Shown piece by piece: positions 14,164-62,019 of a stretch of DNA of 64,000 nt; position 1 is the first letter of the stretch, and each line of letters begins with the position of its first letter. Both the position numbers and the translations under genes were made by a program. The notes under the pieces were generated by a model. That model did not search any database. It saw only the letters and a program-made list of their open reading frames with translations, and was not told the DNA's origin. The DNA is taken from positions 1-64,000 of the IMG/VR virus record IMGVR_UViG_3300032431_000001; one strand, written 5' to 3'. Origin of the DNA: a virus.

Positions 14164-14170
14164 TAAAAAA

Positions 14171-14205
14171 GCGGGCGATCGGATTAAATTAATTCGATCG
14201 CCCGC
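14171..14205. terminator. palindromic bidirectional terminator (HIP1-stem family)
   Basis: GCGGGCGATCGGATTAAATTAATTCGATCGCCCGC with A-run/T-run. It lies between convergent genes ending at 14163 (+) and 14229 (-). Confidence 0.75.
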
Positions 14206-14228
14206 TTTTTTATTTCCGCAAAACCAGT

Positions 14229-15415: not shown

Positions 15416-15446
15416 TTTCAACAACCGATTCGAGTTTTAAAAGAAA

Positions 15447-15479
15447 AGCCCGTGCGATCGAAATTCGATCGCACGGGCT
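15447..15479 (+). terminator. palindromic terminator
   Basis: AGCCCGTGCGATCGAAATTCGATCGCACGGGCT followed by TTTCTTTT, after stop 15415. Confidence 0.7.
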
Positions 15480-15551
15480 TTTCTTTTGTCGTAAAACAAT
15501 ACAAAAAAGGAACCCCAGTCATTAATCAATGAACTGGGGTTCCTTTTTTTG

Positions 15552-20879: not shown

Positions 20880-21452
20880 CTATCTTTGCAGGGCAAGTAT
20901 TTCCGCAGACATATAAGCTTCGTTGTGCCGGCCATCAGCATTTTCGATGTCAGCAGCAGATGAGTGTCTATGAAAACGCAAAAACTCAGCTTGAGCGGCA
21001 AGCGCAAGAAGCTCTTCACCTGCGTAATTGGTTATATCAAACTCGTTGCGTAGCATTCTTTTTGCGTGTATCGCTTCGTGGATTAATACCGAAGCCCCTA
21101 AAATATAATCAGGGTTCCATGCACAACGCCCCATGCTGTCCGACCCCGCTTCATATACGCCTAGATGGTTTACCCCGCTATCTGCGTAAGTAGCGCCCAT
21201 GATGATTCCTCTCAACGTTGCTACTAAAGATTCCCATTTTGTGTTTTTTATTTCTTCTAGACAACGATTTACGTGTTTTACGAAAACATCACTACCTTCA
21301 ATCCTAATATCATCCAAATTTCGAGTTAACACCTCGGTATATCGCAATTCAGTTTCCGAAGTCGAGTGTACTGTATATTCTACCGAGGTATTTGTGTCAG
21401 TATTGTCGCTATCTGTAAACCCCCAAGTTTCCGCAAGCCATCCAATAAGCAT
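20880..21452 (-). CDS. putative zincin-like metallopeptidase (HExxH)
   Basis: 190 aa. VLIHEAIHAKRMLRNEFDITNYAGEELLA gives HExxH plus a Glu about 20 residues downstream (gluzincin-like spacing). This is motif-level evidence only. Confidence 0.4.
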   Translation of the reverse strand: MLIGWLAETWGFTDSDNTDTNTSVEYTVHSTSETELRYTEVLTRNLDDIRIEGSDVFVKHVNRCLEEIKNTKWESLVATLRGIIMGATYADSGVNHLGVYEAGSDSMGRCAWNPDYILGASVLIHEAIHAKRMLRNEFDITNYAGEELLALAAQAEFLRFHRHSSAADIENADGRHNEAYMSAEILALQR

Positions 21453-21572: not shown

Positions 21573-22577
21573 TTATGTTACCTTGATTTCTTTAATGGCT
21601 TCTTGCAAATGTTCGTGAATGACTAGCTCCTCTCGTTCAAGAATTGCCTGTTTAGCAGCATCTTGTGCAACCCTCACGGCTTGAGCGGCAGAAAAATCTC
21701 TCATCATATCAACGATCGCCAGCCAGTCGATCGCGCCGACTTCAATGGCAGATAGTGTTTCCTTTAAGATAAGTGCTAACTCTTTTTCCCCCGGTTTGGG
21801 TACTTCAATCAAATCATCAAAGCGCCTCCACAGTGCAGTATCAAGAGATTTATTCAGGTTCGTAGCTGCTACAAGAAGACCCGATGTCGGTTCATATTCG
21901 TCCAAAATCTGAAGAAATGTATTGACGACGCGCTTCATTTCTCCTACTTCCTGATAATCTTCTCTTGACTTAGCAATTGAGTCGCACTCATCAAGAAGCA
22001 ACAAGCAGGGATTTTTTAACGCATCCTCAAAAACAAGTCTCAAGTTGCTCGCAGTTTCTCCTAAAAAAGATGATACCGTTGCATCAAATCGAACTTTCAG
22101 AAGTGGTAAACCTGTATTCCAAGCTAAACGTTCGGCTCCCAGTGTTTTACCACAACCGGGAAGACCATACAGTAGAATTTTTTGCCTGTAGCGGAGCCCG
22201 TGATGAGCCAGCCTATCTCTTGCTGCATACTCGCGCTCAATTCGCTGGAAACGTTTTTCAATCACTTCAGGTAGTACCATGTGATGCCGCAGTTTTTCTC
22301 TTGGTATGACAGTAACTAAAGGAAGATTAAATCGCTTACTGCTCGACAGTTCACTTAGGGCTTGTCGGCTTTCTGGTACGACCGAAGTAGATGAGCTGTT
22401 AGATGTGGGTTTCTCTTTCTGGCTCCTCTTCGTAATACTCTCTAATTGATCTGCTAGGAGCGTGTGTCCCTTTTTGCGTTCCTCCTCGATAACTAGATAC
22501 GTCAATTTGTCGATCGCCTCTGTATCGGAACTGGCGATCGCTTTAAATAGCCTTTTAAGAACTTCTGCTTTCATCAT
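21573..22577 (-). CDS. AAA+ ATPase (classic AAA clade)
   Basis: Walker A LLYGLPGCGKT, Walker B CLLLLDECDS, second region of homology VAATNLNKSLDTALWRRFD. ORF track start is 22760. I prefer ATG 22577 (MMKAEVLKRLF...), which removes the overlap with the divergent MerR-like ORF. Confidence 0.8.
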   Translation of the reverse strand: MMKAEVLKRLFKAIASSDTEAIDKLTYLVIEEERKKGHTLLADQLESITKRSQKEKPTSNSSSTSVVPESRQALSELSSSKRFNLPLVTVIPREKLRHHMVLPEVIEKRFQRIEREYAARDRLAHHGLRYRQKILLYGLPGCGKTLGAERLAWNTGLPLLKVRFDATVSSFLGETASNLRLVFEDALKNPCLLLLDECDSIAKSREDYQEVGEMKRVVNTFLQILDEYEPTSGLLVAATNLNKSLDTALWRRFDDLIEVPKPGEKELALILKETLSAIEVGAIDWLAIVDMMRDFSAAQAVRVAQDAAKQAILEREELVIHEHLQEAIKEIKVT

Positions 22578-22720
22578 GATCCCTGGTGTAGGTTTATTCA
22601 GATATTGTAACAGATTTATTGGTAATACACTCTCGTATATATTAGTCACTAAAAATGAATGTGTTACGGGTGCATTATAATAAGGTGTGACTCCGTTAAC
22701 CACGATCGCCCGCAATAAAT

Positions 22721-23254
22721 ATGGAACGCTCTCGCGATACGCAGCCTTGTAATTGCCCAACTCAAGGGTTCACCCGACAAGAGACGATAATACTCACCGA
22801 CATCACGTCATCTCGGCTAGCATACCTTGACCGCGTAAACATAATTATCCCGCAAAAGTACGGCAGCCACAAAAAACCGCGCGTCGATTATTCGTGGGAG
22901 CAGGTTCTACAACTGCGAGCCATTACACACTTAAAGCAGACGATATCCCTAGATTTAACCCGGAAAATAGTTCACTATTTCGATGAAATCGGTATCGCTC
23001 AAGATTGGGGCGATCGGCATCTTGTAATAGCAGGTGAAGATATTTTTACCAGCAAACCAGACTGGTCGGATATGGCACAAATCATGAGCGATGCCGCAGC
23101 CGATCGCCCAGAAGATTTTACAGTAGTCGTTTTTCCTAACATCGATCGCATTGTTTCGGATGTGTGTCGGGTGGCGATCGATTCCAATTTAATTGATATC
23201 GAAACATTCATTGAACGTGCGAAAATAGGTATGCCTGCTTTATTGAACGGTTGA
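22721..23254 (+). CDS. MerR/excisionase-type HTH protein (putative)
   Basis: 177 aa. FTRQETIILTDITSSRLAYLDRVNIIIPQKYG...YSWEQVLQLRAITHLKQ follows the MerR-like HTH pattern. Divergent from the AAA+ gene. Confidence 0.4.
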   Translation: MERSRDTQPCNCPTQGFTRQETIILTDITSSRLAYLDRVNIIIPQKYGSHKKPRVDYSWEQVLQLRAITHLKQTISLDLTRKIVHYFDEIGIAQDWGDRHLVIAGEDIFTSKPDWSDMAQIMSDAAADRPEDFTVVVFPNIDRIVSDVCRVAIDSNLIDIETFIERAKIGMPALLNG

Positions 23255-25400: not shown

Positions 25401-25425
25401 CGCTAGGAATTTCATAAAACAAAAA

Positions 25426-25458
25426 AGACGCATCTAATTAAATTAATTAGATGCGTCT
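25426..25458 (+). terminator. palindromic terminator (AATTAAATTAATT-loop family)
   Basis: AGACGCATCTAATTAAATTAATTAGATGCGTCT flanked by A6 and T9, after stop 25400. Confidence 0.75.
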
Positions 25459-25640
25459 TTTTTTTTGTAAGGTTATTCGATTCCGATATAAACAGGTTGT
25501 AACCAAGAGAGAGAAACCACGTTCGTCGTTCATTAGCTTTGAGCCTTTTAAACTACCAATATAATACCAAAACAGTTGACGGTATATAGTAAACCGCGTA
25601 TACTGATATATATAAAGAACAAAAACAACACCAAAAACAA

Positions 25641-25948: not shown

Positions 25949-26239
25949 TTAGTCAATTCCGCACTTTTGAATTACACTCCGACATTTTTCGTAAATGTCT
26001 TTGGTCATTGTCGTGCGATCGATTAGAGTAAGCAGATTATCCTTGTAGTCCGCTTGAGCTCTTTGTTTATGAAACGCTTCGGCTGAGAATAAATACCTGT
26101 AGGTGCGATTCCCTTTCTTACTGGGAGCCTGCTTTCCAGACAGGCGATCGAATTTCAATCCTGGATACCTTTCTATCCGAATATATTTCCCCTTGAAATA
26201 CTCCCCGACCTTAAGGTACGGGGATTCTTGACACTTCAT
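25949..26239 (-). pseudogene. chimeric ORF: 3' part of a small gene interrupted by the second TnpB element
   Basis: The first ~16 codons lie inside the IS end or the tnpB 3' end. The remainder (GKYIRIERYPGLKF...VIQKCGID) lies outside the IS and ends at the shared terminator. Confidence 0.35.
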
Positions 26240-27389
26240 CGACTGATGCTACCGAGATAGTCTTACTCTGTCTCTGTGTCCGTTTATAGTCGTGGCGATT
26301 CCCCATCCCGACTTTTTCTATATTCTTTGCGGCGTTTTCATCTCGATCATGTTCTGCCCCACAACTTAAACATTTAATTGTACGAACCTTTAGATCGAGT
26401 TTTCCCCATTTAAAACCACACTCAGAACAAATTTGACTGCTAGGTTCCCAGCGACTAATTACTACAAAGTCTCTACCAAACTTCTCACATTTTGCTTCGC
26501 ACAGAGTTCGGAATTCCGCCCAACCTTGCTGACTAATAGCTCTTGAAAGTTTTCGGTTTTTCATCATCCCTGACACATTTAAATCTTCTAAAACAATAGC
26601 TTGGTTTTCGCTAACAACTTTAGTCGATAGTTTGTGCAAGAAGTCTTTACGAGTATCTGCAATTTGATTATGCAGTTTAGCGATTTGAATCCGAGTTTTC
26701 CTTCTGCGGTTCGAGTCTTTCTGTTGACGTGCTAACTTTTTCTGAAGCTTGCGAACTCTCTTGTCTAACTCTTTGTATGACGGGCTTTCAGCTTTTTCGC
26801 CGTTGCTCATAAAAGCAAAAGTCTTAATCCCCAAATCAATACCGATGCTTTGGTTTTTGGCTTCGATATTGACAGGTTCTATCTCAACTACAAAGCTAAG
26901 AAAATAGCGGTTAGCACAGTCTTTGATTACCGTTACAGAGCTAGGGGCTACTGGTAACTCTCTTGACCAAACGGGATTGATATCACCAATTTTAGCTAAA
27001 TAAACACTCTTACCCTTTATAGAAAAACCATTGAGAGTGAATCTTGCCGATTGTTGGTTGGTTCTCTTTTTGAATCTTGGACTACCTAACTTTTTCCCTT
27101 TTCTCTTACCTTTTAATGAGTCAAAGAAATTTTTATAGGCAACACCTAAATCAGCAATAGATTGTTGCAACGGAACATTAGAGACACTAGCAAGCCATTC
27201 TCTCTCTAAAGTCTTCTTTGCCTGGGTGATTACAAGCTTTTGCAAGTCGCCATTACTGGGCAGTTTTTCCGATTCTTTACAGATAGCCAGTGCATCATTC
27301 CAGACTACTCGAACACAGCCAAACAACCGAGCTAAACTCTGTTGCTGTTGGTTGGTTGGGTAGAATCGGTACTGATATCTGGCTTTCAT
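26211..27389 (-). CDS. tnpB: TnpB (RuvC-like RNA-guided nuclease family)
   Basis: 392 aa. YQYRFYPTNQQQQSLARLFGCVRVVWN; GIDLGIKTF; VLEDLNVSGM; CSECG...CLSCGAEHDRDENAAKNI. All catalytic and zinc-finger positions are present. Confidence 0.85.
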   Translation of the reverse strand: MKARYQYRFYPTNQQQQSLARLFGCVRVVWNDALAICKESEKLPSNGDLQKLVITQAKKTLEREWLASVSNVPLQQSIADLGVAYKNFFDSLKGKRKGKKLGSPRFKKRTNQQSARFTLNGFSIKGKSVYLAKIGDINPVWSRELPVAPSSVTVIKDCANRYFLSFVVEIEPVNIEAKNQSIGIDLGIKTFAFMSNGEKAESPSYKELDKRVRKLQKKLARQQKDSNRRRKTRIQIAKLHNQIADTRKDFLHKLSTKVVSENQAIVLEDLNVSGMMKNRKLSRAISQQGWAEFRTLCEAKCEKFGRDFVVISRWEPSSQICSECGFKWGKLDLKVRTIKCLSCGAEHDRDENAAKNIEKVGMGNRHDYKRTQRQSKTISVASVDEVSRIPVP

Positions 27390-27724: not shown

Positions 27725-28114
27725 TTGTCAACAAGGATGGAGCCGGAACCCCAAAGTCTTATCAAATACGGCGTCTGGGATAACCTAGAAGTTGCGGTAG
27801 ATGTTGGCAAAGAAGACCTGTACTTATCGTTTCCCACGATTGAGACGATTCTCAACTACAGACCAAATAGTTTAAGGGAAAAAATCGCCTCTAAATCCCT
27901 AAAAACCTTTCTGGGGGAGGGTTTAATTCTAGGGAAAATTTCGGGTAATATTGTCAACAAGGCAGGAACCGGAACCCCGAAAGTCTCTTTAATTTTGTTG
28001 AGGAATTTCACCGATCGCCCGCTAAATTCTAAAACAAAAGCCCCGTTACTAAATTTAGTAACGGGGCTTTTGTTGTTATTGAGGTCTAAACTCGATCTGC
28101 GTGATCGGTGCTAG
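27725..28114 (+). pseudogene. decayed member of the 16324-type family; reads through its terminator
   Basis: TTG start. The ORF runs through the terminator hairpin (28039-28068) into the 3' end of the convergent gene. A ~115-nt direct repeat (27645-27759 vs 27871-27986, about 75% identity) encodes KI(D/A)SKSL..FLG..LILGK.SG.IVNK.G.GTPK twice. Confidence 0.35.
28039..28068. terminator. palindromic bidirectional terminator
   Basis: AGCCCCGTTACTAAATTTAGTAACGGGGCT with A-run/T-run, just 3' of the 705-aa gene stop (28076). Confidence 0.7.
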
Positions 28115-30193
28115 TTTTTGTTCTTCGATGACCGATCGCCCGACCCAAATCCTCAAGCGTTCGGCAATTTTAGCCAAATCGTCGGGTAACTTAGATCGCA
28201 GGTTTTCGCAAATTTCTGCGACACCTTCGATGCCTCGAAGTTCTGCTTCACGTTTGACATCGACCAAAGCGGCTTTATATCCGCGATAGTATTCTTTACT
28301 CAAACTTGCTTGCCATATAATTCGTAATCGTGGGATCTCTTGGGACAATGTGTCTTGTCCCAATATCTCAACGATAGTTTCACTGGCTGTTGACAGATCA
28401 TCTGCCAAGTCAGCCAATACGAGAATATATTCGTTGAAATCCACACGAGATTTCGTGATTTCAGATTTCGCTTTCGCGAATCCATCTGGCGTTGCCAGAC
28501 GGTATATATCTCGAATCGTGTCCGCGACGGGACACTTGTCTTCAGAGAAGACTTTGTAGTTTTGATAGTCCCTCACGAAGCTTGAAACTTCGGAAATAAT
28601 ATCGACTTCCTCGTCAATTTCCCCTGGTTCGGGGGTTGACTCGGCTTGGGCGATCGGATTGATCTCGATCGCCCGACAGACAAAGCTGCCGTTTGAATCA
28701 AGCACTTCTTGGACAAGTTCGTCCGGGAGTGCTTGCTGCTCTTTTCTGAAGCTGATGAAATGTGGTTCATGAAGAACGCATATACCCACTTCAGTCTTAT
28801 CGTCACCAATACGACACATTTCTGTGTCGGTCGTTGGTAGAGCGATCCGAATTCTCGAATCGAGACTCTCGATGATGTCCGCAAGTGCAACGGCACTCAC
28901 GTAACATTTGTACGGCGTAGTGTCGTACCCCCTGTTTTTTGGGGTCAGGGTGACTAAACCGTCAATACCTTGAAAGGTCAAGGTGTTGTCTTCCCCCCAC
29001 CAAATTCGACAGTAGTTATCTGTTGGATTTCTCCAATTCAACCACCGTGTAACTTTGGATAGGGCTTGTAGGAATTCGTCTCTGCTAAATTCAGCAGGGA
29101 CTTCCTTGCTAACAGGCAATTCGTGCCAGTTACTGGGATATTCGTTGATATCCATCAATTCGCCACGTAGTGCGGCGCTTTCCGATGTTAGTACGAATTC
29201 CCCATTTTCCTTAAAAGATAAGGAGACTATTTGGTCGTCATCGCGCTGAATTCGACAGAATTCGTCGATCCCATCTTGTGGGACTAAGAATCTGCCTGGG
29301 TTGTCAGAGCGTCCGAGTTCAGCGCTGTAAACGCTAATCCCAGAAAATCCTTTTATCCGGGTATAAGCTCCGGTATGGATCTCGACACCTGTTAAGTAAA
29401 AATCTGAGTGCTGTCTGCAAGGCAAGCTTGCAACTATTTTGGTCGCAAATTTCATTTTCTTCCAGTTTTCCTGGGAGAAGTGAACTGTTGCGATTGTCGG
29501 AATAGAGGTCTGGACTTTCTTGTCGAAAGCTGTCAATCCTCCATTCCTGTGAACGATGCGTAGGCGATCGCCTTGCATTAAGCAAACTGAGAGTTCCCAA
29601 TCTTTCTCTAGCGCAAGATGAATATCTTTTTCGGGGATATTCATCGTTGTAACCGTACCGTGTTTTTTTGTGACTTTAGTTGTCACCTCGGCGATTTTCT
29701 TTGTCGCCTTAAATGTGTACTGTTCCTTCTCAAGAGAATCTTTATGGCTCAGGATTTTTAGTTGCTGGCGATCGAGATAGAACACTTTAAATTGTTCTAA
29801 CTGCGCCACGACAGCTTGGACTTCGTAGAATTCGCGGGCATAATTTTCCCCGCAATACTCATTGTCGTTGCTTTCATCGTCACTAACATCTGTTTCTATT
29901 TGTAGCACCTGAATTGGCGCTTCTTGTACACCTTCCTTCTTTTCCACTACTTGGAGTAGTATTTCCGAGTATGGACAATTGGAAGGGTTTAGTCTTCCTA
30001 GAGCTGTCAATATCTCAGATGTATCTACAGTAATCTGAAATACCTGCGTTTGAGTTGCCCCAATGGCAGGTAAGGCGATCGTGTATTTATTACCCTTTTT
30101 CCCTGAAATTACAACAGAGTTCCAAGCCCAGTCAATAGAGACCTCTTTGGTATTTAGGCTGGCTATTGTGTTGGCTAACTTTTCAGTTTTCAT
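28076..30193 (-). CDS. aberrant DnaN-fold (sliding-clamp-like) protein with helical C-terminal extension
   Basis: 705 aa. Collinear with the window's own DnaN: YLTGVEIH..RIKGFSGISVYSAEL vs VLSGIHLK..ELAATDGHRLSLTSV; MDINEYPSNWHELPV vs RTLQGAYPNYPDLIP; AEFSRDEFLQALSKV vs ILVDRKRLLASVERI; YVSAVALADIIESLDS vs FGFNIKYLLDILKAGN. It also has an acidic insertion in domain I and a ~200-aa C-terminal tail. Confidence 0.5.
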   Translation of the reverse strand: MKTEKLANTIASLNTKEVSIDWAWNSVVISGKKGNKYTIALPAIGATQTQVFQITVDTSEILTALGRLNPSNCPYSEILLQVVEKKEGVQEAPIQVLQIETDVSDDESNDNEYCGENYAREFYEVQAVVAQLEQFKVFYLDRQQLKILSHKDSLEKEQYTFKATKKIAEVTTKVTKKHGTVTTMNIPEKDIHLALEKDWELSVCLMQGDRLRIVHRNGGLTAFDKKVQTSIPTIATVHFSQENWKKMKFATKIVASLPCRQHSDFYLTGVEIHTGAYTRIKGFSGISVYSAELGRSDNPGRFLVPQDGIDEFCRIQRDDDQIVSLSFKENGEFVLTSESAALRGELMDINEYPSNWHELPVSKEVPAEFSRDEFLQALSKVTRWLNWRNPTDNYCRIWWGEDNTLTFQGIDGLVTLTPKNRGYDTTPYKCYVSAVALADIIESLDSRIRIALPTTDTEMCRIGDDKTEVGICVLHEPHFISFRKEQQALPDELVQEVLDSNGSFVCRAIEINPIAQAESTPEPGEIDEEVDIISEVSSFVRDYQNYKVFSEDKCPVADTIRDIYRLATPDGFAKAKSEITKSRVDFNEYILVLADLADDLSTASETIVEILGQDTLSQEIPRLRIIWQASLSKEYYRGYKAALVDVKREAELRGIEGVAEICENLRSKLPDDLAKIAERLRIWVGRSVIEEQKLAPITQIEFRPQ

Positions 30194-30207
30194 AATTGAG
30201 TTAAGAA

Positions 30208-30267
30208 AGACTACCCCTCTATTATACTACAAATGGAGTGATTTGTAGTATAATAGAGGGGTAGTCT
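30208..30267. promoter_or_regulatory. 27-bp perfect inverted repeat carrying mirrored divergent promoters
   Basis: AGACTACCCCTCTATTATACTACAAAT (30208-30234), 6 nt, ATTTGTAGTATAATAGAGGGGTAGTCT (30241-30267). Each arm contains TATAAT, N6, GTAGTC reading outward (plus 30249-30266, minus 30209-30226). Confidence 0.7.
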
Positions 30268-30282
30268 TTTAAAGGTTCAATC

Positions 30283-32256
30283 ATGACTTTTATTAATTTA
30301 AAACATTTCAAAGGAAAGGTTGCCACTGTCGCAAAAATAAGCGATCGTAACAACTTCGTAGAATTAATCCTTTCAAAACAAGGAAGGCTGTCGTTCCGAA
30401 TTTTATTTGGGGACGGTCAGGGTCAGGTCAGTATCCCGATCGAATCACGGACTATAAAAGACAAATCACAATTTTCCGATAAAACGGTTGTTGTGCCTGT
30501 AGAAATACTGGCCAAATTAACAAGAAATCTTCCTGTTTTACTGGAAGAAATCAAGCTGGAGTTTACATCTCCAGGACTGATTATTACGGGTGGTTACGGA
30601 AAAACGCAGACTGACGAAGAAAAACCGCTGTATTCGATGCAGTATGAATTGCATCATTGTGAATACTTGCATAATAAGCGCGAGTATGACCTTACTGAAG
30701 AGAAGGTTATATCCTTCTCTACGAAGACAGACGTTGCTTCGGTCTTGACCGACGCAGCAAAGGTCGCACAAAAAGCCACCGCTTCGAGGTTAAATAATTT
30801 ATTTTTGTCCTGTAAAGAGGACGAAATACTAATCTCGGCTACGAATGGTCATCAGATCATTCAAAAATACATTTACAGTACAGCGACGCTTGATGCGGAT
30901 ATTGACTTTATTGTCAGTGCCGAATTAGGCGTGGCGATCGGGAAGTTCTCTTTCCAAATCGCCCACTGGGAAATCTATCAAAATTTCGTCAAAGTAACTC
31001 TTGACGATGTTATTGAAATATTTGCCGAGCGCCCGCTGATGCCTGAATTCCCGGATTTCAAAAAATGGGAAGACAAAAGCCAGCACGTAAGTCTGATCGT
31101 GGATGCTAACGAGATAAAAACTCGTCTAGCCAAGTTCAGTAAAGATACTTGGCTGTGGTTATACACAGTTGAAAATCGACTGGCGATCGAATGCTATCAG
31201 GATGATAGCGTAGGGATTTCTTGGGTAAAAAATACCCTCAAGACACCCCCGGCAATAGCTATTGTTAACAGCAAGTTATTGCTGGACACTTTAAAAGCCG
31301 TCAAGAAAGGGACGAGTCAGATCAGGCTTTTGCTACCTAAATTGGTAGCTGAGAACGAGTCTGAAGAGTTCTTTAATAGCGGTACAGATACCCGAAATGT
31401 AGTGTATTTAGAGTTTGATAAAAACTCTTATCTCGTTGCTGGAGGGAAAAGACGAGCTTTGCGAACACCGCCAGGTGTTAGCGACTGGTTGATCGTCCAA
31501 GGATGGTCGATATTTCCAGAAAGTAAGCCAGTTTCGACCGCTGCAAAATCAGTGGTTAAGATCCTTAGTGATCGTTGGAATGGCAAAGGGTGGGAACGCC
31601 CTGAGCTCATTGAGTGCGGATGCGGAACCGTGCATGACGAATCTACCTTAAAACCGCAAATCAAGAAATTGAAAGGTCATTGCGAGTTCTGCGAAGATTA
31701 TCGCGAACTTGCTTTGTACCGAATTGACCGCCGTTGCGCGAACCCAACTTGTAATACGCGGAACACGGTAACGGTCGATCTCCCATTTCCTAACCCAGTT
31801 TGTATGAACTGCGGAAATGGTTCGTTCACAACGACGCACTATTTTAAGTGCTTAGAATGTGAAGCGCGTGTAACAGTCGAAGACTGCAAAAGCTGTCTTT
31901 ATGACGACGCAATCCTAGAAAAGGATGCGTTAATGTGGCAGTGCGGTGCTTGCGAGTCTACCTTTTTCGCGGATGATATTTGCGATAAAGAGGATTTGCA
32001 GTACCTTCAAGAACTAGAGGTAGAGGACGACTTTATCTTTATCGGATGCCCGTGCTGTAAACGGTTCGATGTCGAACTGACTAGCTCGCAGATGTATTCG
32101 TGCTTCGTGTGTGGTACAACCGCCCACGAATCTTTTTACATTCCCGAAATTGAAGCATTATTGCTTCCTTGTTCGGAATGCAACGAAGACCTGAGCAGCA
32201 TTCCTTCAGAAAAAATGAACAATCCGTTTGTCGTTGGAGGAGTGACTAGATTCTAA
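30283..32256 (+). CDS. DnaN-like sliding-clamp homolog fused to a C-terminal multi-zinc-ribbon domain
   Basis: 657 aa. VPVEILAKLTRNLP vs DnaN VPAKLLLDIVSRLP; ILISATNGHQIIQ vs LELAATDGHRLSL; ERPLMPEFPDFKKW vs RTLQGAYPNYPDLIP; IAIVNSKLLLDTLKAV vs FGFNIKYLLDILKAG; YLVAGGKR vs FLMMPVQLR. The C-terminal ~230 aa carries about ten CxxC/CxC pairs (CGCG, CEFC, CMNC, CLEC, CKSC, CGAC, CPCC, CFVC, CSEC). Confidence 0.6.
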   Translation: MTFINLKHFKGKVATVAKISDRNNFVELILSKQGRLSFRILFGDGQGQVSIPIESRTIKDKSQFSDKTVVVPVEILAKLTRNLPVLLEEIKLEFTSPGLIITGGYGKTQTDEEKPLYSMQYELHHCEYLHNKREYDLTEEKVISFSTKTDVASVLTDAAKVAQKATASRLNNLFLSCKEDEILISATNGHQIIQKYIYSTATLDADIDFIVSAELGVAIGKFSFQIAHWEIYQNFVKVTLDDVIEIFAERPLMPEFPDFKKWEDKSQHVSLIVDANEIKTRLAKFSKDTWLWLYTVENRLAIECYQDDSVGISWVKNTLKTPPAIAIVNSKLLLDTLKAVKKGTSQIRLLLPKLVAENESEEFFNSGTDTRNVVYLEFDKNSYLVAGGKRRALRTPPGVSDWLIVQGWSIFPESKPVSTAAKSVVKILSDRWNGKGWERPELIECGCGTVHDESTLKPQIKKLKGHCEFCEDYRELALYRIDRRCANPTCNTRNTVTVDLPFPNPVCMNCGNGSFTTTHYFKCLECEARVTVEDCKSCLYDDAILEKDALMWQCGACESTFFADDICDKEDLQYLQELEVEDDFIFIGCPCCKRFDVELTSSQMYSCFVCGTTAHESFYIPEIEALLLPCSECNEDLSSIPSEKMNNPFVVGGVTRF

Positions 32257-32262
32257 AACAAA

Positions 32263-32292
32263 AGCCCCGCAAGGTATTAACCTTGCGGGGCT
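32263..32292. terminator. palindromic bidirectional terminator shared by the 657-aa gene and the DGQHR gene
   Basis: AGCCCCGCAAGGTATTAACCTTGCGGGGCT between stops 32256 (+) and 32299 (-). Confidence 0.75.
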
Positions 32293-32298
32293 TTTTAT

Positions 32299-33489
32299 TT
32301 ATTTAGTTTTGGGCTTGGTGACTGGTAATTCCAGTTTTTCCACCAAGTAATCAAAGATGCGCTCATCTGCGCCAGATGTGATTACCTTCCCTTGTGGGGT
32401 TAAAACATCGATCGCCAGCCAATCTGCATTACCTTTCGACCAGTCAATGTCTGAAAGCTTTTGCAAAATTGCAATCTTGCCTTCACGCAGTGCTTCTGTT
32501 GTAGGCATGAACACGGCTCCCAATTTCCCGATCGCCTTCACGGAGATCGAATGAGTGGCGATCGTTTCCCGTCGGACTATGACGGGGTTTTGTCCCCAGT
32601 CTTTCATGACCTGAGAGATGATACTCCAGTATTGGCGTACTAATCGCTTCTGATCGTCTAGGGGGCTGAACTTAATGTGTTTGCGAGAGAACTCGATCGC
32701 CTCTTGCAATGTTTTGTACGGGAAAATCTTTTCACTTTTCCCGTTTACTGACGGGCTGTTGTACTCGATACAACTCTGAGAGAATACTGAGATTCGCTCG
32801 TCGTGATCTTGGGCAATAATGTGGGACACAAGATGCGTTCCCGGATTGCGGTGATCCATCGACTTCGATAGACCACTTGATACTTTTGTTTGCTCTTCGT
32901 TGATGTCGCGGAAAGCCTGTCTGCGGGCGATTACACTGTCTATACAGTAAAGCGTCGCCGTGACGTGTTCATCGGCTAGTGTCGGATCTTCTCGCAAAGC
33001 GAGATTAAGACCTAGTAACCGATGCTGTCCGTCTAAAGGGAATAGTTTTGTTCCCTTTCTTAAACATAGCTCGCCGTAACACCCACCAACAGAAAAGAAG
33101 TCGAATCCACCTTCAATCACTATTGTAACTGCGGGTAGAATGTAAGACGTTCTGTTTGCTAGCACATAGGCTGAAAGTTTTTTAACTTTCGGCCCTTTAA
33201 CTTCGCGCTGTATTCGTTCCGGTTGTGGAACGTTCCTCTCCGCAAAAGATATTAGCTTCGCTAGCTTGCCAATCGTTAGTTGGATGGTGTAGAACTCTCG
33301 TTCGGCTTGAACACCTTTTAAGGCGTCAAACTTGATCCAGTGTTCGATTGGTTCGATTAATTCGATTGCTTCGGCGATCGGTTCGATTGCCACAGACTCT
33401 AAAACTTCTTCTGGAATTATTTCCAGGTTTTCAGTGGGAGTTATCGCTACTTTCGCAGGTACAACTTTTTTCTTAGTATTGAGTGGCAT
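32299..33489 (-). CDS. DGQHR-domain (DndB/DpdB-like, ParB-nuclease-superfamily) protein
   Basis: 396 aa with an exact DGQHR signature (KLFPLDGQHRLLGLNLAL). Promoter TAAAAT, N7, GTAGTC (33505-33523 minus). Convergent with the 657-aa gene across a shared terminator (32263-32292). Confidence 0.8.
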   Translation of the reverse strand: MPLNTKKKVVPAKVAITPTENLEIIPEEVLESVAIEPIAEAIELIEPIEHWIKFDALKGVQAEREFYTIQLTIGKLAKLISFAERNVPQPERIQREVKGPKVKKLSAYVLANRTSYILPAVTIVIEGGFDFFSVGGCYGELCLRKGTKLFPLDGQHRLLGLNLALREDPTLADEHVTATLYCIDSVIARRQAFRDINEEQTKVSSGLSKSMDHRNPGTHLVSHIIAQDHDERISVFSQSCIEYNSPSVNGKSEKIFPYKTLQEAIEFSRKHIKFSPLDDQKRLVRQYWSIISQVMKDWGQNPVIVRRETIATHSISVKAIGKLGAVFMPTTEALREGKIAILQKLSDIDWSKGNADWLAIDVLTPQGKVITSGADERIFDYLVEKLELPVTKPKTK

Positions 33490-33553
33490 ATAAAACCTTA
33501 GATGGACTACATTTATAATTTTACTTTATTGTGTTTATAAAATCAAATAAAAA

Positions 33554-33592
33554 AGCCTACCAAACTAATTAAATTAATTAGTTTGGTAGGCT
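33554..33592. terminator. palindromic terminator (AATTAAATTAATT loop)
   Basis: AGCCTACCAAACTAATTAAATTAATTAGTTTGGTAGGCT with A5/T6 flanks, 3' of stop 33600 (-). Confidence 0.7.
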
Positions 33593-33599
33593 TTTTTAT

Positions 33600-33980
33600 T
33601 TACCACTCGTCTCTTGTTATTCGCAAGATAGAGGTACTCGTGTCGTTCTTCTCGAACAACCAGGCTTCTATTTGATTCCAAGCTTCGCTTGGCGACTCAC
33701 ATAGAATGGGCAACGCCCGTCCGTCTGACAGTTCGACTCGATGTACCGCGATTGTTTCCGTCCAGTAGTCTTCGTAGTCATCGTCGTCTTTTTCGACTTC
33801 TATAAACCAAGGGCTTGCTTTTTCCTGAGAAGCTAGATACTGTAAGAAAACAATCGCGGTTGCGATCGCTTCTCGAACGGTTTTTACCGCTTTTGAAAGA
33901 ACAGTTAATTGGTCAAGAAAATAAATCATTTGCATTTCCTGGTTTTGTTGAATGAGGAGGTTCTCTCCTCTTGTATACAT
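33600..33980 (-). CDS. hypothetical acidic protein
   Basis: 126 aa with a DDDDYEDYW acidic patch. A palindromic terminator at 33554-33592 lies immediately downstream. Confidence 0.5.
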   Translation of the reverse strand: MYTRGENLLIQQNQEMQMIYFLDQLTVLSKAVKTVREAIATAIVFLQYLASQEKASPWFIEVEKDDDDYEDYWTETIAVHRVELSDGRALPILCESPSEAWNQIEAWLFEKNDTSTSILRITRDEW

Positions 33981-35579: not shown

Positions 35580-35733
35580 CGTTTTGCTATTCTGCTGAAA
35601 GAGGTCGCGGGATAAGAACGAGTTACCCGATCGCCCAAAAGATACAGACTTGCTCAGGTTGAGAGAGAATAGAGTTGAAAAGCTAAATTTTCGCCCCACC
35701 CTACCAGGCAGCGCCATTACAGGCGCTTTTTTT

Positions 35734-38700
35734 ATGTCCGACCAGTATGGCTTAGAGTCGAATTTTAAATTTGCTGCTTCCAGTAACTCGTTCTCGCAGA
35801 TGGATCGGGTGATTGCGCTGTTGGAAGGAATCGAACAGGCTACAAAAGAGACGGCTCAGACGATCGCCAGTACGAGCCTGGGCAAAGATTTAATGAAGTC
35901 ACTCAACGCCGATGGGGTGAAGCGGGCAAGCAAAGATATTCAGGGTGCGACCAAGAAGATTGGGAACGCGCTCAGTCCTTTGAAGACTGAATTTAGAGCA
36001 TTACGGGCGGAGTCTCGAAATATTGATTTCGGTGAAATGACGGACACGAGGCAGTTCAAGAAGGCGTCAAATGAAGTTAGCGCATACATTAAAAAGTTAA
36101 AGGAATTAGAGAAGCAAATAACGGGAACCGAGCCTGCCGATCGCGAGTTCAAGGCTGGTCTGCGATCACAGCAACGGACTGCGGGCGACAAAGTAAAAAT
36201 GGCAAAGGCGAACCGAGATGCGTCGATGGCGTCAGAACGACTGGGATTCTCGCAGGCGATCCAGGGTGGTGGACAAAGTGTGCTTGATGTGTTTGCCACC
36301 CCACTTGAATCTGCGATGGAATTGCAGAAGAGTATGGCCGGTGTGAAGAAGCTGGCCGGTGACATTAGCGAAGGCGGTAATCGGTTACTGCAAAATGAAG
36401 TTTTTAATTTATCTGCAAGATTAGGTGTTGAAGATACAAAAGTTAGTGCAATCTTTGAAGATTTAGCCGGTTCTGGTAAACAGTTTGGCGATCAGATGGG
36501 TGGCATTGGAACCCGGATCGCAGAAGTTGAGCAAATTTTAAAAAATCAACAGGCTCTTGATGTCTCTGGTGGCGCTGCAACGCAATTAGACGTAACACTG
36601 GGTTCTATTTATAAAAATTTAGTATCTAAAGATCCGCAGGCGATCGTTGAATTGAACGCAAGAGTCGCATCTAGTATCAATCAACTTGCAGATAAATTGA
36701 GCGATGTGCGGATTTCCGCAGAAGACGTTATCCCTGTAATGAACGTCGTGATGAACACCGTTGGTGACGCTGCCAATTTTCCCATTGATCAGATCGCAGC
36801 CTATTCTGCGGCGATCGCCTCGCTCGGAACTATTGAACCAGAGGCTGCGGGTTCGTTCTTCAACCGCCTGGGCGCCAAGATGTCAGAAAACACAAAGGCT
36901 TTTGCTGGCGCGTTAAATATGGACGTTGAGGATTTTGAAAAAGCATTAAATACTGACAAATTAGGTGTTGTTACAAAAGTAGCCGAAGCCTATAAAAACG
37001 TTCAAGGTGGAGAGCTTAAACAAGGTGCTTTCTTTAAGTCTATCGGAGTTGGATCTGTACAAGACCAGAAACTTTTACAGGGACTTGCCAACAATATAGA
37101 CACCCTAAAAAGTGCCAGTGTCGTTGCCAAAGGCGGCTTCTTTGGTAAAGATATTTTAGAGTTAGTAGACCCAAAAACTGGCAAAAAAGTCATGAGCTTG
37201 GGTAAAGATTTAGGAGAGTTATCAATTGATCATGAAATCGGGGAGGTAATGAAAACGGCTTACTTCCAAACCACAAGATTTGACACATCAGTGGGTGCGC
37301 TTATGAGTACCTTGGGGATTGCTTGGTTAAAAGTAATTACACCACTTAAAGCTCTTGGTGCCGATATTGCTGGTGTACTTTTAAAGGTTACTCAAGCCGC
37401 TCCTGAGCTGACAACGGCTTTAACTGTTCTAGTCGTTGGATTCGCCACGTTAGCGGCAATGGCTGGAACTGCTGGTGTTGCTTTATTTGGGTTCCAACAA
37501 GCACAGGCGATCGCCGCAACCGCAGCGATCGGAATGCAGCACAGTCTAATTCCGTTAACCGGGTTTTTTGAGACGGCGATGACCGGGTTTAAGGGGACAA
37601 ATCCTTGGACGGGCGTGTTTCGGCAGTCAACGGTACTAGCTGATGAATTTACAGTTGCGGCGAACGGTGCAAAGGGTTTGGTTGGTGGTGAATTGCGAAC
37701 TGCATTTATTGCGCTGCGTGCTCAAGTCATGATGACAAGCCAAGCCGCGTTGAGTATGGGGCGGGCATTCCTGTTGTCGCCGCTAGGGTTGGCGATCGGA
37801 TCGTTCTTGCTGTTTGATCAATTACTCCAACGGGCAAATCCTAAAGTGCGACTGCTCGGAACCTTGTTCAGCTTGTTTAGTTCCGCAGCCGGTTTTGCGT
37901 TTGGAATTCTCGAAGGCTTTGTCGGTGCGTTTCTCGAATTGTTGAAAGTTCCTGCTGGGGCTGCGGGTGGATTACTGTCTGCGCCATTTACTGCAATCTC
38001 CCAAGCTTTAGAGTTTGCGATGGAAAGTTTCAAAAACTGGGAGCGATCGGGAAAGCATATTGGTGAAAGTATTTTCAATATTTTGGCGAGTCCCTTTATT
38101 CTTGCAGCTAGCGCAACTGCCGGAGCGTGGGACAAGACAATCTCATTTATCGCCGGATTGTTAAAACCACTAGCCGACCTTGCCGCCTACATCGGTTACT
38201 TCATTCAAGGTTCTTTATCGGAGCATTCACCCGGACCTACTTCGATGATTCGACTTAAATGGGCGATCACAGCAGCATCCGTCGTCGGTAGCTTTCTGAT
38301 GATGCAAGTCTCGTCAGCAATAACTGGTTTAAAAATACGAGAAGCGATGGGCGCGGCCGCAGCCTGGGTGGTCACAAATTGGCAAGCGTCTGTCGAGAAA
38401 GTTACTAATTTCTTTGCCGGATTAACTTTACCTGACACGCTCACCAACTTTGCCACAGAAATAGGCAACGCTTGGAACAACACTTTCGGAATGATGACGA
38501 GTGGTTGGCTTAGTTTTGTGGATACCTTTACATCGACAACACCTAATTTTGGCGGGTTAGCGATGGCAGGTATGGCGGCGATGCAGCCTCTCATTGCTTG
38601 GGGGTTGCCTGACATTGTTTCCGATGGTTTTGACAAAGTGACGCAACCCCGATCGCCCGCAACCGCTCCCAAAATACTTCCTCCCACAACACCTCCACAG

Positions 38701-50154: not shown

Positions 50155-50169
50155 TCGTAGTACGAATAG

Positions 50170-50198
50170 TTGACATTCTACTACAATTGTAGTATTAT
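50170..50198 (+). promoter_or_regulatory. sigma70-type promoter
   Basis: TTGACA (50170-50175), 17 bp, TATTAT (50193-50198). It shares TACGAATAGTTGACAT with the promoter at 5201-5216. Confidence 0.5.
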
Positions 50199-51451: not shown

Positions 51452-51556
51452 ATAAACAAAAAGCGCGCATCTAATAAATGTATTAGATGCGCGCTTTTTG
51501 TTGACTTGTATAGTTGGCTATGATATATTAATTATGTAGTCACTTAGGTATCCGTT

Positions 51557-60849: not shown

Positions 60850-62019
60850 ATGCAATTCAGAACCAATCAATCCACGTTCGATGAGATTTTGTCTTTAACA
60901 AATAGAGCGATACCCAGCAAAGCTACACATCCTGTGTTAAGTTGCTTTCTGATCGAAGCGGACGCGACGCAAGATGCCGTGAGCGTGACTGGGTTTGACT
61001 TAGGCATGGGGATCAATGCCACGTTCTCGGCGATCGTCGAGAAAGGTGGAACGTGTGCCGTCCCGGCTAAGTTGCTGCTCGATATAGTTTCCCGACTACC
61101 AGAAGGCGAAATCGTTTTCAAGGTGAGCGACTTGTTGCTGACCTTGACAAACTCGTCGGGGAATTATGCGGTTCGGACGATGGAACCCGATGAATACCCC
61201 GAACTTCCCGATATTTCGGAAAATCCACTCTGGCAAATAGAGTTCAACCCGGAAGGGCTTGCTGCCGGAATTAGAAATACTGCTTTTGCCGCTTCGACAG
61301 ACGAAGCCAAGCAAGTTTTGAGCGGAATACATTTGAAGGTATCCGGTGGATACCTAGAGCTTGCCGCTACCGACGGACATCGATTATCTTTAACTTCTGT
61401 TATGTCGGGAGACGCAAGTGATGGAGAAGGTACGGAGTTCAAAGCGACAATTCCACTACGAGCCATGCGTGAAGTTGAGCGCCTGCTCCAGAGGTGTTCA
61501 GACCCGATCGTTTTGAATTTTTCAGAAGATCAAGTGTTGCTGCGGACGAAAGGTGATGGAAAAACCGCCACAATAGTGGCCCGCACTTTACAGGGAGCCT
61601 ACCCGAATTACCCGGATTTGATACCTCCAGTTTTCACGCAAAAAATCCTCGTCGATCGAAAAAGACTGCTTGCCAGCGTAGAACGTATTAACGTGTTCGC
61701 CCTGGGAAAATCCCCCGCTTGCCTATTTGCGATTTCCGAAGAAGATCAGTGTATCTCCCTTTCTAGCCAAACTCAAGATATCGGCAATGGTCGGGAGTCG
61801 ATCGCGGCGCAAGTCACTGGAACTGACATAACTTTTGGATTCAATATCAAATATCTCCTTGATATATTGAAGGCGGGTAACTCGCCAGAGATTGAACTTC
61901 ACGCGAATTCCGCGTTCGCCCCAGTGGTTTTCAAACCACTGGGAGGTGCGAATGTTACTTTTTTGATGATGCCTGTTCAACTGCGGGGTGGTAATAACGA
62001 GTCTACTAGAGTAAATTAG
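60850..62019 (+). CDS. dnaN: DNA polymerase III beta subunit (sliding clamp)
   Basis: 389 aa with full three-domain collinearity: SKATHPVLSCFLIEAD, VPAKLLLDIVSRLP, LELAATDGHRLSL, GAYPNYPDLIP, FGFNIKYLLDILK, FLMMPVQLR. Confidence 0.9.
   Translation: MQFRTNQSTFDEILSLTNRAIPSKATHPVLSCFLIEADATQDAVSVTGFDLGMGINATFSAIVEKGGTCAVPAKLLLDIVSRLPEGEIVFKVSDLLLTLTNSSGNYAVRTMEPDEYPELPDISENPLWQIEFNPEGLAAGIRNTAFAASTDEAKQVLSGIHLKVSGGYLELAATDGHRLSLTSVMSGDASDGEGTEFKATIPLRAMREVERLLQRCSDPIVLNFSEDQVLLRTKGDGKTATIVARTLQGAYPNYPDLIPPVFTQKILVDRKRLLASVERINVFALGKSPACLFAISEEDQCISLSSQTQDIGNGRESIAAQVTGTDITFGFNIKYLLDILKAGNSPEIELHANSAFAPVVFKPLGGANVTFLMMPVQLRGGNNESTRVN

What the first reader, a model, noticed from the sequence alone, without database searches (positions are those of the whole stretch)
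28076..33489. Mirror-image gene pair encoding two aberrant DnaN-fold (sliding-clamp-like) proteins, one fused to a zinc-ribbon array, next to an orphan DGQHR/DndB-like gene
Both large ORFs can be threaded domain by domain onto the genuine DnaN in this same window. Examples: VPAKLLLDIVSRLP / VPVEILAKLTRNLP; LAATDGHRLSL / ISATNGHQIIQ / IKGFSGISVYS; GAYPNYPDLIP / MPEFPDFKKW / INEYPSNWHELPV; FGFNIKYLLDILKAG / IAIVNSKLLLDTLKAV / YVSAVALADIIESLDS. They are very diverged from DnaN and from each other. Each carries a large non-clamp extension: about ten CxxC pairs (roughly five zinc ribbons) on the 657-aa protein, and an acidic insert plus a ~200-aa helical tail on the 705-aa protein. They are transcribed back to back from a perfectly symmetric promoter palindrome, which argues for strict co-expression and possibly a heteromeric ring. 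I recognise no polymerase, clamp loader or primase beside them. Instead, the convergent neighbour across a shared terminator is a solitary DGQHR (ParB-nuclease-superfamily, DndB/DpdB-like) protein, with none of its usual dnd or dpd partners. I know of no described system with this architecture. It could be a DNA-tracking sensor/effector (defence or counter-defence), or a phage device that substitutes for or poisons the host clamp.
Basis: partly seen in the sequence, partly recalled or inferred. Interest (0 to 1): 0.85.

Follow-up and report, generated by a model that had tools for sequence, protein, structure and literature searches.

The report
Two aberrant sliding-clamp paralogues in a cyanophage
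A clade of about 200-kb phages, probably of filamentous cyanobacteria, carries an ordinary DNA sliding clamp plus two very diverged clamp-fold proteins with unusual extra domains, expressed from one conserved palindrome; this is real and unusual, but the link to the neighbouring DndB-like gene, and hence to defence, is not supported.

Summary
28076-30193(-) encodes a 705-aa protein (A) and 30283-32256(+) a 657-aa protein (B). Both are diverged DnaN (beta-clamp) homologues.

- **B:** a complete three-domain clamp protomer (Foldseek TM 0.7-0.81 to solved DnaN; hhalign 85%). It carries a very acidic array of about five zinc ribbons.
- **A:** weaker evidence. Pfam DNA_pol3_beta scores above threshold in 15 of 17 relatives, and Foldseek gives E=2e-12 but with poor global superposition. 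It seems to have three or four clamp-type units, no basic inner helices and an acidic helical tail.
- **Control region:** between the genes lies a perfect 29+29-nt palindrome with TATAAT in each arm. It is conserved, with compensatory changes, in all seven relatives examined.
- **Genome context:** the element is a 190-225-kb phage known only from metagenomes. The whole clade also carries a canonical dnaN.
- **Distribution:** family A is confined to this clade, with 3 clusters among 1.84 billion representative proteins.
- **DGQHR gene:** it is real but is a separate transcription unit. Its sequence divergence across relatives does not track that of A and B. In other phages such genes sit beside DNA methyltransferases, not clamps.

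Best reading: a lineage-specific, non-replicative adaptor pair derived from the clamp, not a defence triad. The mechanism is inferred, not shown.

The parts
28033..28074 (.). Perfect 21+21-nt palindrome (A-run, GC stem, T-run). Intrinsic terminator closing gene A.
   Evidence: I9. It lies directly 3' of the stop codon of A at 28076.
28076..30193 (-). Gene A, 705 aa. A diverged DnaN-fold protein with 3-4 clamp-type units (about 1-130, 131-227, 233-345 and 367-471). It has an acidic insert at 102-121, an ultra-conserved connector at 341-362 and an acidic helical tail at 476-705 that ends in a conserved C-terminal peptide.
30206..30269 (.). Perfect 29+29-nt palindrome with a 6-nt spacer. Each arm holds GTAGTATAAT, a consensus -10 box pointing at the adjacent gene. 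Inferred to be a bidirectional promoter/operator or a cruciform.
   Evidence: It is conserved in 7 genomes: 7 pairs carry changes on both sides, and 0 of 500 shuffles reach the observed covariation. DNA hairpin -29.8 kcal/mol, z = -12.
30283..32256 (+). Gene B, 657 aa. A complete three-domain beta-clamp protomer (aa 1-~400), a conserved Trp-rich linker (389-444), an acidic array of about five zinc ribbons (445-633) and a conserved C-terminal tail ...NDPFVVGxVTRF.
32254..32301 (.). Bidirectional intrinsic terminator shared by the convergent genes B and DndB-like.
   Evidence: I11
32299..33489 (-). DGQHR-domain (DndB-like, ParB/Srx superfamily) protein, 396 aa. A separate transcription unit whose functional link to A and B is unproven.
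33545..33601 (.). Perfect 28+28-nt bidirectional terminator. It separates the upstream 126-aa gene from the DndB-like unit. A sigma-70-like site at 33546-33518(-) lies just inside it.
   Evidence: I2
60850..62019 (+). Canonical phage-borne dnaN, 389 aa. It is the reference clamp and shows that A and B are supernumerary.

Best explanation
A and B are lineage-specific, neo-functionalised paralogues of the beta sliding clamp. They are encoded by a clade of about 190-225-kb phages, probably of filamentous cyanobacteria, that also keep a canonical dnaN for replication.

Shown:
- Both proteins have the DnaN fold.
- B is a full three-domain protomer whose predicted inner helices are conserved and basic.
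- The zinc-ribbon array of B (net charge about -24) and the tail of A (about -18) are strongly acidic.
- The most conserved stretches of both proteins are segments predicted to be disordered.
- The two genes are monocistronic units that diverge from one conserved, covarying palindrome carrying a consensus -10 box in each arm.

Inferred:
- B rides on double-stranded DNA as a ring or partial ring.
- A lacks a basic lining. It acts as a clamp-fold adaptor that binds a partner peptide through the cleft built around its invariant connector (ALRGELMD-x-N-x-YPS-x-WHELP). That connector corresponds to the DnaN domain II-III connector, which contributes to the peptide-binding cleft in beta. The likeliest partner is a conserved tail or linker of B.
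- The acidic zinc-ribbon array and helical tail recruit proteins rather than DNA.
- The pair therefore works as a DNA-tracking recruitment platform. It couples phage DNA replication to another DNA transaction. The best precedent is clamp-dependent late transcription, as with T4 gp45 plus gp33/gp55 and Mu MuC plus the host clamp.
- Equal-strength mirror promoters give matched expression of the two genes.
- The DGQHR gene is a neighbour, not a component.
For: - **Fold:**
- **Canonical dnaN in every large contig of the clade:** orthologues lie on the 199,763-, 224,197- and 44,572-bp contigs. The replicative clamp role is therefore already filled.
- **Basic helices:** five of the seven helix segments scored in B are basic, +1 to +3 in all members. 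The eight in A average between -1.8 and +1.8.
- **Acidic modules:**
- **Conservation of low-confidence segments (fraction of invariant positions):**
  - A 341-362: 68%
  - A 667-705: 36%
  - B 389-444: 32%
  - folded domains: 13-28%
.
- **Pair always divergent and adjacent:**
- **Palindrome:** conserved with compensatory changes and unique within the 64 kb.
- **Monocistronic units bounded by terminators:**
- **No defence-family hits:**
- **Precedent for clamp-dependent phage late transcription:** PMC12867686, and the T4 gp45 system, which is established knowledge.
Against: - There is no direct evidence for DNA binding, for ring formation, for A-B contact or for any transcription link.
- The A model is weak (pLDDT 60, pTM 0.29). 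The first 230 aa of A have no sequence support for a clamp fold.
- A count of 4+3 domains does not fit a canonical six-domain ring.
- No sigma-like or gp33/gp55-like partner was identified in the window.
- A and B are among the faster-evolving genes compared. Against the distant relative L001 they are 37-39% identical, versus 77% for the N-terminus of the tape-measure protein and 45% for dnaN and DndB. This would also fit an arms-race role.
- Promoter function is inferred from a consensus -10 box only. The -35 match is 3 of 6.
Confidence: 0.4

Rival explanations
1. Host take-over decoy. A and/or B mimic the host beta clamp. They sequester or mis-direct host clamp-binding proteins such as Pol III alpha, the clamp loader, Hda-like regulators or repair factors. 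This shuts down host replication or redirects the replisome to phage DNA.
For: - A has a clamp fold without a basic DNA-facing lining and with an invariant cleft connector.
- Both proteins are very acidic and evolve fast.
- The phage keeps its own canonical dnaN.
- The -10 box is of the host type, which fits expression by the unmodified host polymerase.
- Phage proteins that target the host clamp are known (own knowledge: Staphylococcus phage Twort and G1 clamp-binding inhibitors).
Against: - A and B are so far from cyanobacterial DnaN that faithful mimicry of the host cleft is doubtful. hhalign gives E=0.047 for A.
- A decoy would not obviously need two proteins, or a zinc-ribbon array, or the conserved basic helices of B.
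Confidence: 0.2
2. Dedicated processivity factor for the phage's own family-A DNA polymerase. A and B form a homo- or heteromeric clamp that tethers PolA. The canonical dnaN serves host Pol III or repair.
For: - Relatives encode a PolA (exonuclease plus polymerase domains) 7-9 kb downstream of A, in the same early/replication region.
- Foldseek finds many phage beta clamps, some of them extended to 440-470 aa.
- Viral clamp-fold processivity factors with extra C-terminal regions exist (own knowledge: herpesvirus UL42 and UL44).
Against: - No PolA homologue of the relatives lies in the 64-kb window, so linkage is loose.
- No clamp loader was found nearby.
- A canonical dnaN is already present.
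- The acidic appendages, about 250 aa on each protein, and the non-basic helices of A are not expected for a simple processivity ring.
Confidence: 0.15
3. A, B and the DGQHR protein form one defence or counter-defence system, a DNA-tracking sensor plus a ParB-like effector.
For: - The three genes are neighbours in the window and in all six relatives whose fetched sequence extends beyond B (L001, L002, L005, L009, L016).
- DGQHR proteins belong to DNA-modification and defence contexts.
- The pair evolves fast.
Against: - The whole region is syntenic, from the giant tail protein to L5-gp82. Adjacency therefore carries little independent weight.
- Relatives have an extra small gene between B and DndB.
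- The three genes are separate transcription units.
- DndB identity is decoupled from A and B, 49% against 71/61% in L016. This indicates a recombination breakpoint between them.
- In other phages orphan DGQHR genes pair with DNA methyltransferases.
- A and B have no PADLOC hits.
- The family is absent from 185,579 species-representative bacterial and archaeal genomes.
Confidence: 0.1

Closest known systems
Bacterial and phage beta sliding clamp (DnaN; Pfam PF00712/PF02767/PF02768, TIGR00663, PHROG 947)
   Same: - The fold and domain order match. B superposes on solved DnaN with TM 0.7-0.81.
- Both A and B keep the [FY]-P-x-[FWY] connector motif.
- B keeps basic helices and a DnaN-like C-terminal strand.
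   Different: - Sequence identity is only 10-16%, far below the family equivalog cut-offs.
- Both proteins are nearly twice the normal length and carry novel fusions. B has an acidic array of about five zinc ribbons. A has a possible extra clamp unit, an acidic insert and a 230-aa helical tail.
- They come as a divergent pair and coexist with a canonical dnaN.
- A lacks the basic lining.
T4 gp45 clamp with gp33/gp55, and phage Mu MuC with the host beta clamp (PMC12867686)
   Same: A sliding clamp is used by a phage as a mobile platform for something other than polymerase processivity, namely late transcription coupled to replication. This is a functional analogy only.
   Different: - Those systems use the replicative clamp itself plus small clamp-binding factors.
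- Here the clamp fold itself is duplicated, diverged and fused to adaptor modules.
- No transcription factor partner was identified.
Herpesvirus UL42/UL44 and other viral clamp-fold processivity factors
   Same: These are viral clamp-fold proteins, highly diverged in sequence, with C-terminal extensions. They do not need a clamp loader.
   Different: - They are of the PCNA type with two domains, and belong to eukaryotic viruses.
- They bind a family-B polymerase directly.
- They have no zinc ribbons and do not come as a pair.
DndB / DpdB DGQHR proteins and orphan phage DGQHR genes (PHROG 7901/5732; Salmonella phage SPN1S gp33, Vibrio phage Va_PF430-3_p42)
   Same: The 396-aa neighbour has the full DGQHR domain. 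Like other phage copies, it lacks dndACDE and dpdA.
   Different: - It scores below the DndB equivalog cut-off (162.9 against 328 bits).
- Other phage copies sit next to DNA methyltransferases. None was found beside this one.

Membership tests
Beta sliding clamp (DnaN) | Three tandem clamp domains, each a doubled beta-alpha-beta-beta-beta unit, superposable on solved DnaN | tested here: met
   Met for B: Foldseek E=1e-18, TM 0.70-0.81, rmsd 3.5-5 A over the full clamp, and the secondary-structure pattern agrees. For A the result is only local: E=2e-12 with TM 0.25, and four apparent units. A is therefore inconclusive.
Beta sliding clamp (DnaN) | Sequence score above curated family thresholds | tested here: not met
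   - TIGR00663 (cut-off 137.65): B scores 22.5 bits and A has no hit.
- Pfam, single domains only: A matches PF00712 at 31.1 bits against a cut-off of 24.4. B matches PF02767 at 18.6 bits against 27.
- The PDB profile search finds no clamp.
These are homologues, not equivalogs.
Beta sliding clamp (DnaN) | Positively charged helices lining the DNA channel | tested here: inconclusive
   - B: five of the seven predicted helix segments are conserved and basic.
- A: four of eight are net negative and none is strongly basic.
The test is based on predicted helices, not on a ring model.
Beta sliding clamp (DnaN) | Head-to-tail dimer that closes a six-domain ring, loaded by a clamp loader and binding polymerases through the hydrophobic cleft | not testable with these tools
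No clamp loader was found in the window.
DndB / DGQHR (PF14072, TIGR03187, TIGR03233) | DGQHR domain present | tested here: met
   PF14072 E=4.8e-52. TIGR03187 scores 142.7 bits against a cut-off of 58.85. The DGQHR motif itself is visible in the translation.
DndB / DGQHR (PF14072, TIGR03187, TIGR03233) | DndB equivalog score, and dndACDE (or dpdA/dpdC) neighbours | tested here: not met
   TIGR03233 scores 162.9 bits against a cut-off of 328. No Dnd or Dpd partner turned up among the window ORFs scanned or in relatives.
Known anti-phage defence systems (PADLOC-DB 2.0) | Match of the component proteins to a defence-system model | tested here: not met
   A and B have no hits. Only the DGQHR protein matches, and only the DndB model.

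The most novel reading that the evidence does not exclude
A and B assemble into an asymmetric heteromeric beta-type clamp. A conserved tail of B sits in the invariant cleft of A. I know of no described heterodimeric bacterial-type sliding clamp.

Its genes would be fired from a palindrome that works as an extruded hairpin or cruciform promoter. Such a promoter would be active only on supercoiled or transiently single-stranded DNA, that is, on replicating phage DNA. Together the module would be a self-contained switch from replication to late functions.

The selection for base-pairing in the palindrome is shown: 7 pairs covary and 0 of 500 shuffles reach the observed score. The remainder of this reading is not excluded, but it is untested.
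Probability: 0.12. Interest if true: 0.8.

Novelty: new variant of a known kind. Interest (0 to 1): 0.55.

Why it matters
Sliding clamps are among the most conserved parts of the replisome. In bacteria and their phages, as far as I know, they are described as homo-oligomers of a single short protein.

This phage lineage has kept a normal clamp and also evolved two clamp-fold proteins with new architectures under one unusual mirror-symmetric control element. If they do form a DNA-tracking adaptor or a heteromeric ring, this would show that the bacterial clamp fold can be turned into a specialised recruitment machine. Eukaryotes did the same with the 9-1-1 complex. It would also extend the idea, recently revived by work on phage Mu, that phages use clamps to couple replication to other programmes.

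The case also shows the limits of inferring a system from adjacency. Here the neighbouring DGQHR gene does not appear to belong to the pair.

The practical impact is limited for now. The family is confined to an uncultured phage clade.

Tried and rejected
- **Nucleotide and protein searches of isolate collections.** blastn of the region against 50,697 phage and 72,556 plasmid records found nothing. tblastn of A and B against the phage records also found nothing. The clade has no sequenced isolate there.
- **Profile searches against PDB sequences.** No clamp was found. B gave only weak zinc-ribbon hits, to L37Ae and HypA.
- **hhalign of A against B.** No detectable similarity. They are not recent duplicates of each other.
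- **Per-domain hhalign.** Only A 231-362 against DnaN domain II (E=0.002) and A 363-475 against B domain I (E=0.0012) give even weak signals. A 1-230 gives none.
- **Full HMMER scan with the family A profile.** The scan of 1.84 billion representative proteins returned 3 clusters, all from the same clade. No independent lineage exists in which to test co-occurrence.
- **Wider locus scans.** The scan of 185,579 species genomes found no relative. The metagenome scan for B found only 3 loci, all with A adjacent.
- **A canonical clamp-binding motif (QL[SD]LF) in the conserved C-terminal tails.** By eye there is no convincing match. A ends in ...QIEFRPQ and B in ...PFVVGxVTRF. I do not claim one.
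- **The palindrome as a general phage promoter or terminator class.** Rejected. Its half-site occurs nowhere else in the 64 kb. The many other palindromes are a different, GC-stem and T-run terminator type.
- **Rfam and tRNA scans.** Nothing in the region.
- **Prophage or host origin of the canonical dnaN.** Rejected. It sits among phage genes, and orthologues occur on the same viral contigs.

Full report
**What is there.** The window is part of a large tailed-phage genome.
- It carries a portal gene (1045-2427; PHROG 2662/12) and a 4,834-aa ORF with a weak tape-measure match.
- It also carries an SF2 helicase, three TnpB genes, a group II intron and a canonical dnaN at 60850-62019.
- Relatives lie on metagenomic contigs of 188-224 kb. 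Two of them are IMG/VR viral genomes.
- No relative was found in 185,579 species-representative genomes, in 50,697 phage records or in 72,556 plasmid records.
- The nearest cellular relatives of the phage dnaN are DnaN of Nostocales, Microcoleus and Leptolyngbya, at 43-48% identity. The host is therefore probably a filamentous cyanobacterium. This is an inference.

**The two large ORFs.** A is 28076-30193(-), 705 aa. B is 30283-32256(+), 657 aa. They diverge from an 89-bp spacer.

B is a clamp:
- Its AlphaFold model has pLDDT 66, and 70-86 over most of aa 1-386.
- The model superposes on solved DnaN structures with E=1e-18, TM 0.70-0.81 and rmsd 3.5-5 A over the whole clamp. It matches phage clamps equally well.
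- A 118-sequence DnaN profile aligns collinearly, B 17-401 on DnaN 34-380, with probability 85% and E=6e-6.
- Eight of 12 family members hit Pfam DNA_pol3_beta.
- After the clamp comes a Trp-rich linker (389-444). It is conserved but modelled with low confidence.
- Then come ten conserved Cys pairs, about five zinc ribbons, at 445-633.
- The protein ends in a conserved C-terminal peptide, NDPFVVGxVTRF.

A is less clear:
- Pfam DNA_pol3_beta matches aa 370-462 above the gathering score. Fifteen of 17 members match, best E=6e-10.
- PHROG 947 matches at E=8e-7.
- All 304 significant Foldseek PDB hits head with beta clamps, E=2e-12. TM is only 0.25, because the model (pLDDT 60, pTM 0.29) does not place the domains.
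- The predicted secondary structure shows four doubled beta-alpha-beta-beta-beta units, at about 1-130, 131-227, 233-345 and 367-471. A helical region follows at 476-705.
- The weak but collinear hhalign match, A 149-463 on DnaN 39-354, maps the last three units onto DnaN domains I-III.
- The first 230 aa have no sequence support for a clamp fold. 'Four units' is therefore tentative.
- A and B show no detectable similarity to each other.

**Features that bear on mechanism.**
- Five of the seven helix segments scored in the clamp of B carry a conserved net positive charge. This is expected for a DNA-facing channel.
- The eight helices of A are neutral or acidic.
- The zinc-ribbon array of B has a net charge of about -24, and the tail of A about -18. 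These appendages are unlikely to bind DNA. They look more like protein-recruitment modules or DNA mimics.
- The best-conserved parts of both proteins are segments modelled with low confidence:
  - A 341-362, 68% invariant. The sequence is SAALRGELMD-x-N-x-YPS-x-WHELP. It aligns to the DnaN domain II-III connector, G-x-[FY]P-x-Y-x-x-[LV]IP, which contributes to the peptide-binding cleft in beta (established structural knowledge).
  - A 667-705, 36% invariant.
  - B 389-444, 32% invariant.
  - B 621-657, 24% invariant.
- High conservation combined with low predicted order is typical of segments that fold on a partner. This is an inference.

**Regulatory anatomy.**
- The spacer holds a perfect palindrome, 30206-30234 / 30241-30269, with 29-nt arms and a 6-nt centre.
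- Each arm contains GTAGTATAAT, so a consensus -10 box points at each gene, about 28 nt before its start codon. The -35 match is poor, 3 of 6 by my own reading.
- The palindrome is present in all seven distinct relatives examined.
- The outer nine bases (AAAGACTAC) and the -10 block are almost invariant: one relative, L009, carries a compensated C-to-T / G-to-A change in the outer block. The five bases between the two blocks differ among genomes but always change in both arms: CCCTC/GAGGG, TTCTT/AAGAA, TCTAT/ATAGA, TTCAT/ATGAA.
- Seven pairs show changes on both sides, 93% of cells are paired, and 0 of 500 shuffles reach the observed covariation.
- As single-stranded DNA the spacer folds at -29.8 kcal/mol, z = -12.
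- The half-site occurs nowhere else in the 64 kb.
- Dyad symmetry or base-pairing itself is therefore under selection. Whether this reflects a dimeric regulator, a cruciform or a hairpin promoter is open.
- The genome is full of a different class of long palindromes. These have an A-run, a GC stem, often a TTAATTAA centre, and a T-run. They act as bidirectional terminators after most genes.
- By these terminators, A (28033-28074), B and DndB (shared, 32254-32301) and the gene upstream of DndB (33545-33601) are separate monocistronic units.

**Distribution.**
- Family A has 17 members at the 90% clustering level.
- In a full HMMER scan of 1.84 billion representative proteins it has only three clusters at the 50% level, all from the same clade.
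- Family B has 12 members, plus distant ones the word index missed.
- In every contig with enough flank, B lies divergently next to A. This covers 8 distinct genomes inspected, and 6 more inferred from matching contig lengths.
- The whole region is syntenic, from the giant tail protein through a 126-aa gene, DndB, B and A to L5-gp82. Adjacency therefore adds little independent evidence that the genes function together.
- Relatives carry a family-A DNA polymerase 7-9 kb beyond A. No homologue of it is in this window.

**The DGQHR gene.**
- It is a genuine DGQHR-domain protein, but it scores below the DndB equivalog threshold.
- No dnd or dpd partner was found.
- Its divergence is decoupled from that of A and B. 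Identity to the window for A/B/DndB:

| Relative | A | B | DndB |
|---|---|---|---|
| L005 | 71% | 67% | 80% |
| L002 | 71% | 63% | 76% |
| L016 | 71% | 61% | 49% |

  This implies a recombination breakpoint between B and DndB.
- Relatives have an extra small gene between B and DndB.
- In Salmonella phage SPN1S, Vibrio phage Va_PF430-3_p42 and Pseudoalteromonas phage KB12-38, orphan DGQHR genes lie next to DNA methyltransferases and not next to clamps.
- I therefore treat DndB as a neighbour, not a component.

**Interpretation.**
The 'strict co-expression' claim is plausible.
- The 'system with DndB' and 'defence' readings are not supported. PADLOC gives no hits for A or B, and the pair is present at the same position in every clade genome inspected.
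- The phage keeps a canonical dnaN, and A and B carry large acidic adaptor modules. The most economical model is a non-replicative pair derived from the clamp. B tracks DNA. A is a clamp-fold adaptor that uses its invariant cleft connector. Together they recruit other proteins to replicating phage DNA.
- The best precedents are T4 gp45-dependent late transcription and the recent finding that Mu MuC needs the host clamp for late transcription (PMC12867686).
- I give this model 0.4. The rivals are a decoy for the host replisome (0.2), a processivity factor for the phage PolA (0.15) and a defence triad with DndB (0.1).
- None of these could be tested directly.

**Novelty and score.**
- The clamp fold is known, and extended phage clamps exist.
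- What I found nowhere else is the combination of features: a divergent pair of supernumerary, highly diverged beta-type clamps; an acidic array of about five zinc ribbons on one; a possible extra clamp unit plus a helical tail on the other; and a covarying palindromic control element.
- This makes it a new variant of a known kind. Interest is 0.55: it is surprising for replication and phage specialists, but it is confined to one uncultured clade and no mechanism has been demonstrated.

Noticed in passing
window 35650-50154 (+): A single 4,834-aa ORF with only a weak tape-measure match (phrog_58, aa 3438-3749). Orthologues of 4,837-4,865 aa occur in relatives. Its N-terminus stays 77-80% identical even where A and B have dropped to 39%. 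If it really is a tape measure, it implies an extraordinarily long tail.
   Followed up: partly
window, e.g. 14162-14214, 15439-15487, 25415-25469, 28033-28074, 33545-33601, 51455-51502: About nineteen long, mostly perfect palindromes. They have an A-run, a GC stem, often a TTAATTAA centre, and a T-run. They lie in intergenic regions after most genes and look like bidirectional intrinsic terminators that cut the genome into single-gene cassettes.
   Followed up: partly
window 19483-20685 (-), 26211-27389 (-), 52857-54437 (+); 57142-58971 (-): Three TnpB (IS605 OrfB/Cas12f-like) genes, and a group II intron with RT-maturase-HNH (Rfam RF00029 at 57142-57219), all inside a phage genome. The TnpB at 26211-27389 is absent from the same position in relatives.
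   Followed up: no
window 21573-22760 (-) and 20880-21452 (-): An IetA-like AAA ATPase (NCBIfam anti-phage IteA E=1e-63; PADLOC IetA E=6e-78) next to a small ORF with a weak Peptidase_M91 match. This may be a phage-borne Iet-like defence or exclusion pair, with a non-canonical protease partner.
   Followed up: no
window 16988-18763 (+): A RadD-like SF2 helicase. Its C-terminal 80-100 aa match the DnaA_N-like domain of STICHEL and of cyanobacterial DNA polymerase III tau (PRK14948 positions 427-520). This suggests a helicase that plugs into the host replisome.
   Followed up: no
window 60850-62019 (+) and L007 6064-15322: The canonical phage dnaN is not in a replication module. It lies between a group II intron and a run of large unannotated genes, probably structural. 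A 395-aa ORF with no family match (59569-60756) precedes it.
   Followed up: partly
L016 8300-9460 versus L005 6364-7500: Among relatives with equally similar A (71%), the DGQHR protein is 80% identical in one and 49% in the other. This indicates allele replacement by recombination just beyond gene B.
   Followed up: partly
window 50167-50198: A near-consensus sigma-70 promoter (TTGACA, 17 nt, TATTAT) with a CTACAATTGTAG palindrome embedded in it. It sits between the end of the giant ORF and the next gene. It shares the GTAGTAT core with the A/B palindrome.
   Followed up: no
BFVD hits A0A1C7A3Q1 (804 aa, Haloarcula californiae icosahedral virus 1) and A0A8S5VB45 (594 aa, Siphoviridae sp.): Two long, uncharacterised viral proteins align to B over 600-730 columns in Foldseek, with low TM. 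They may be other cases of clamp folds with large extensions or tandem clamps.
   Followed up: no
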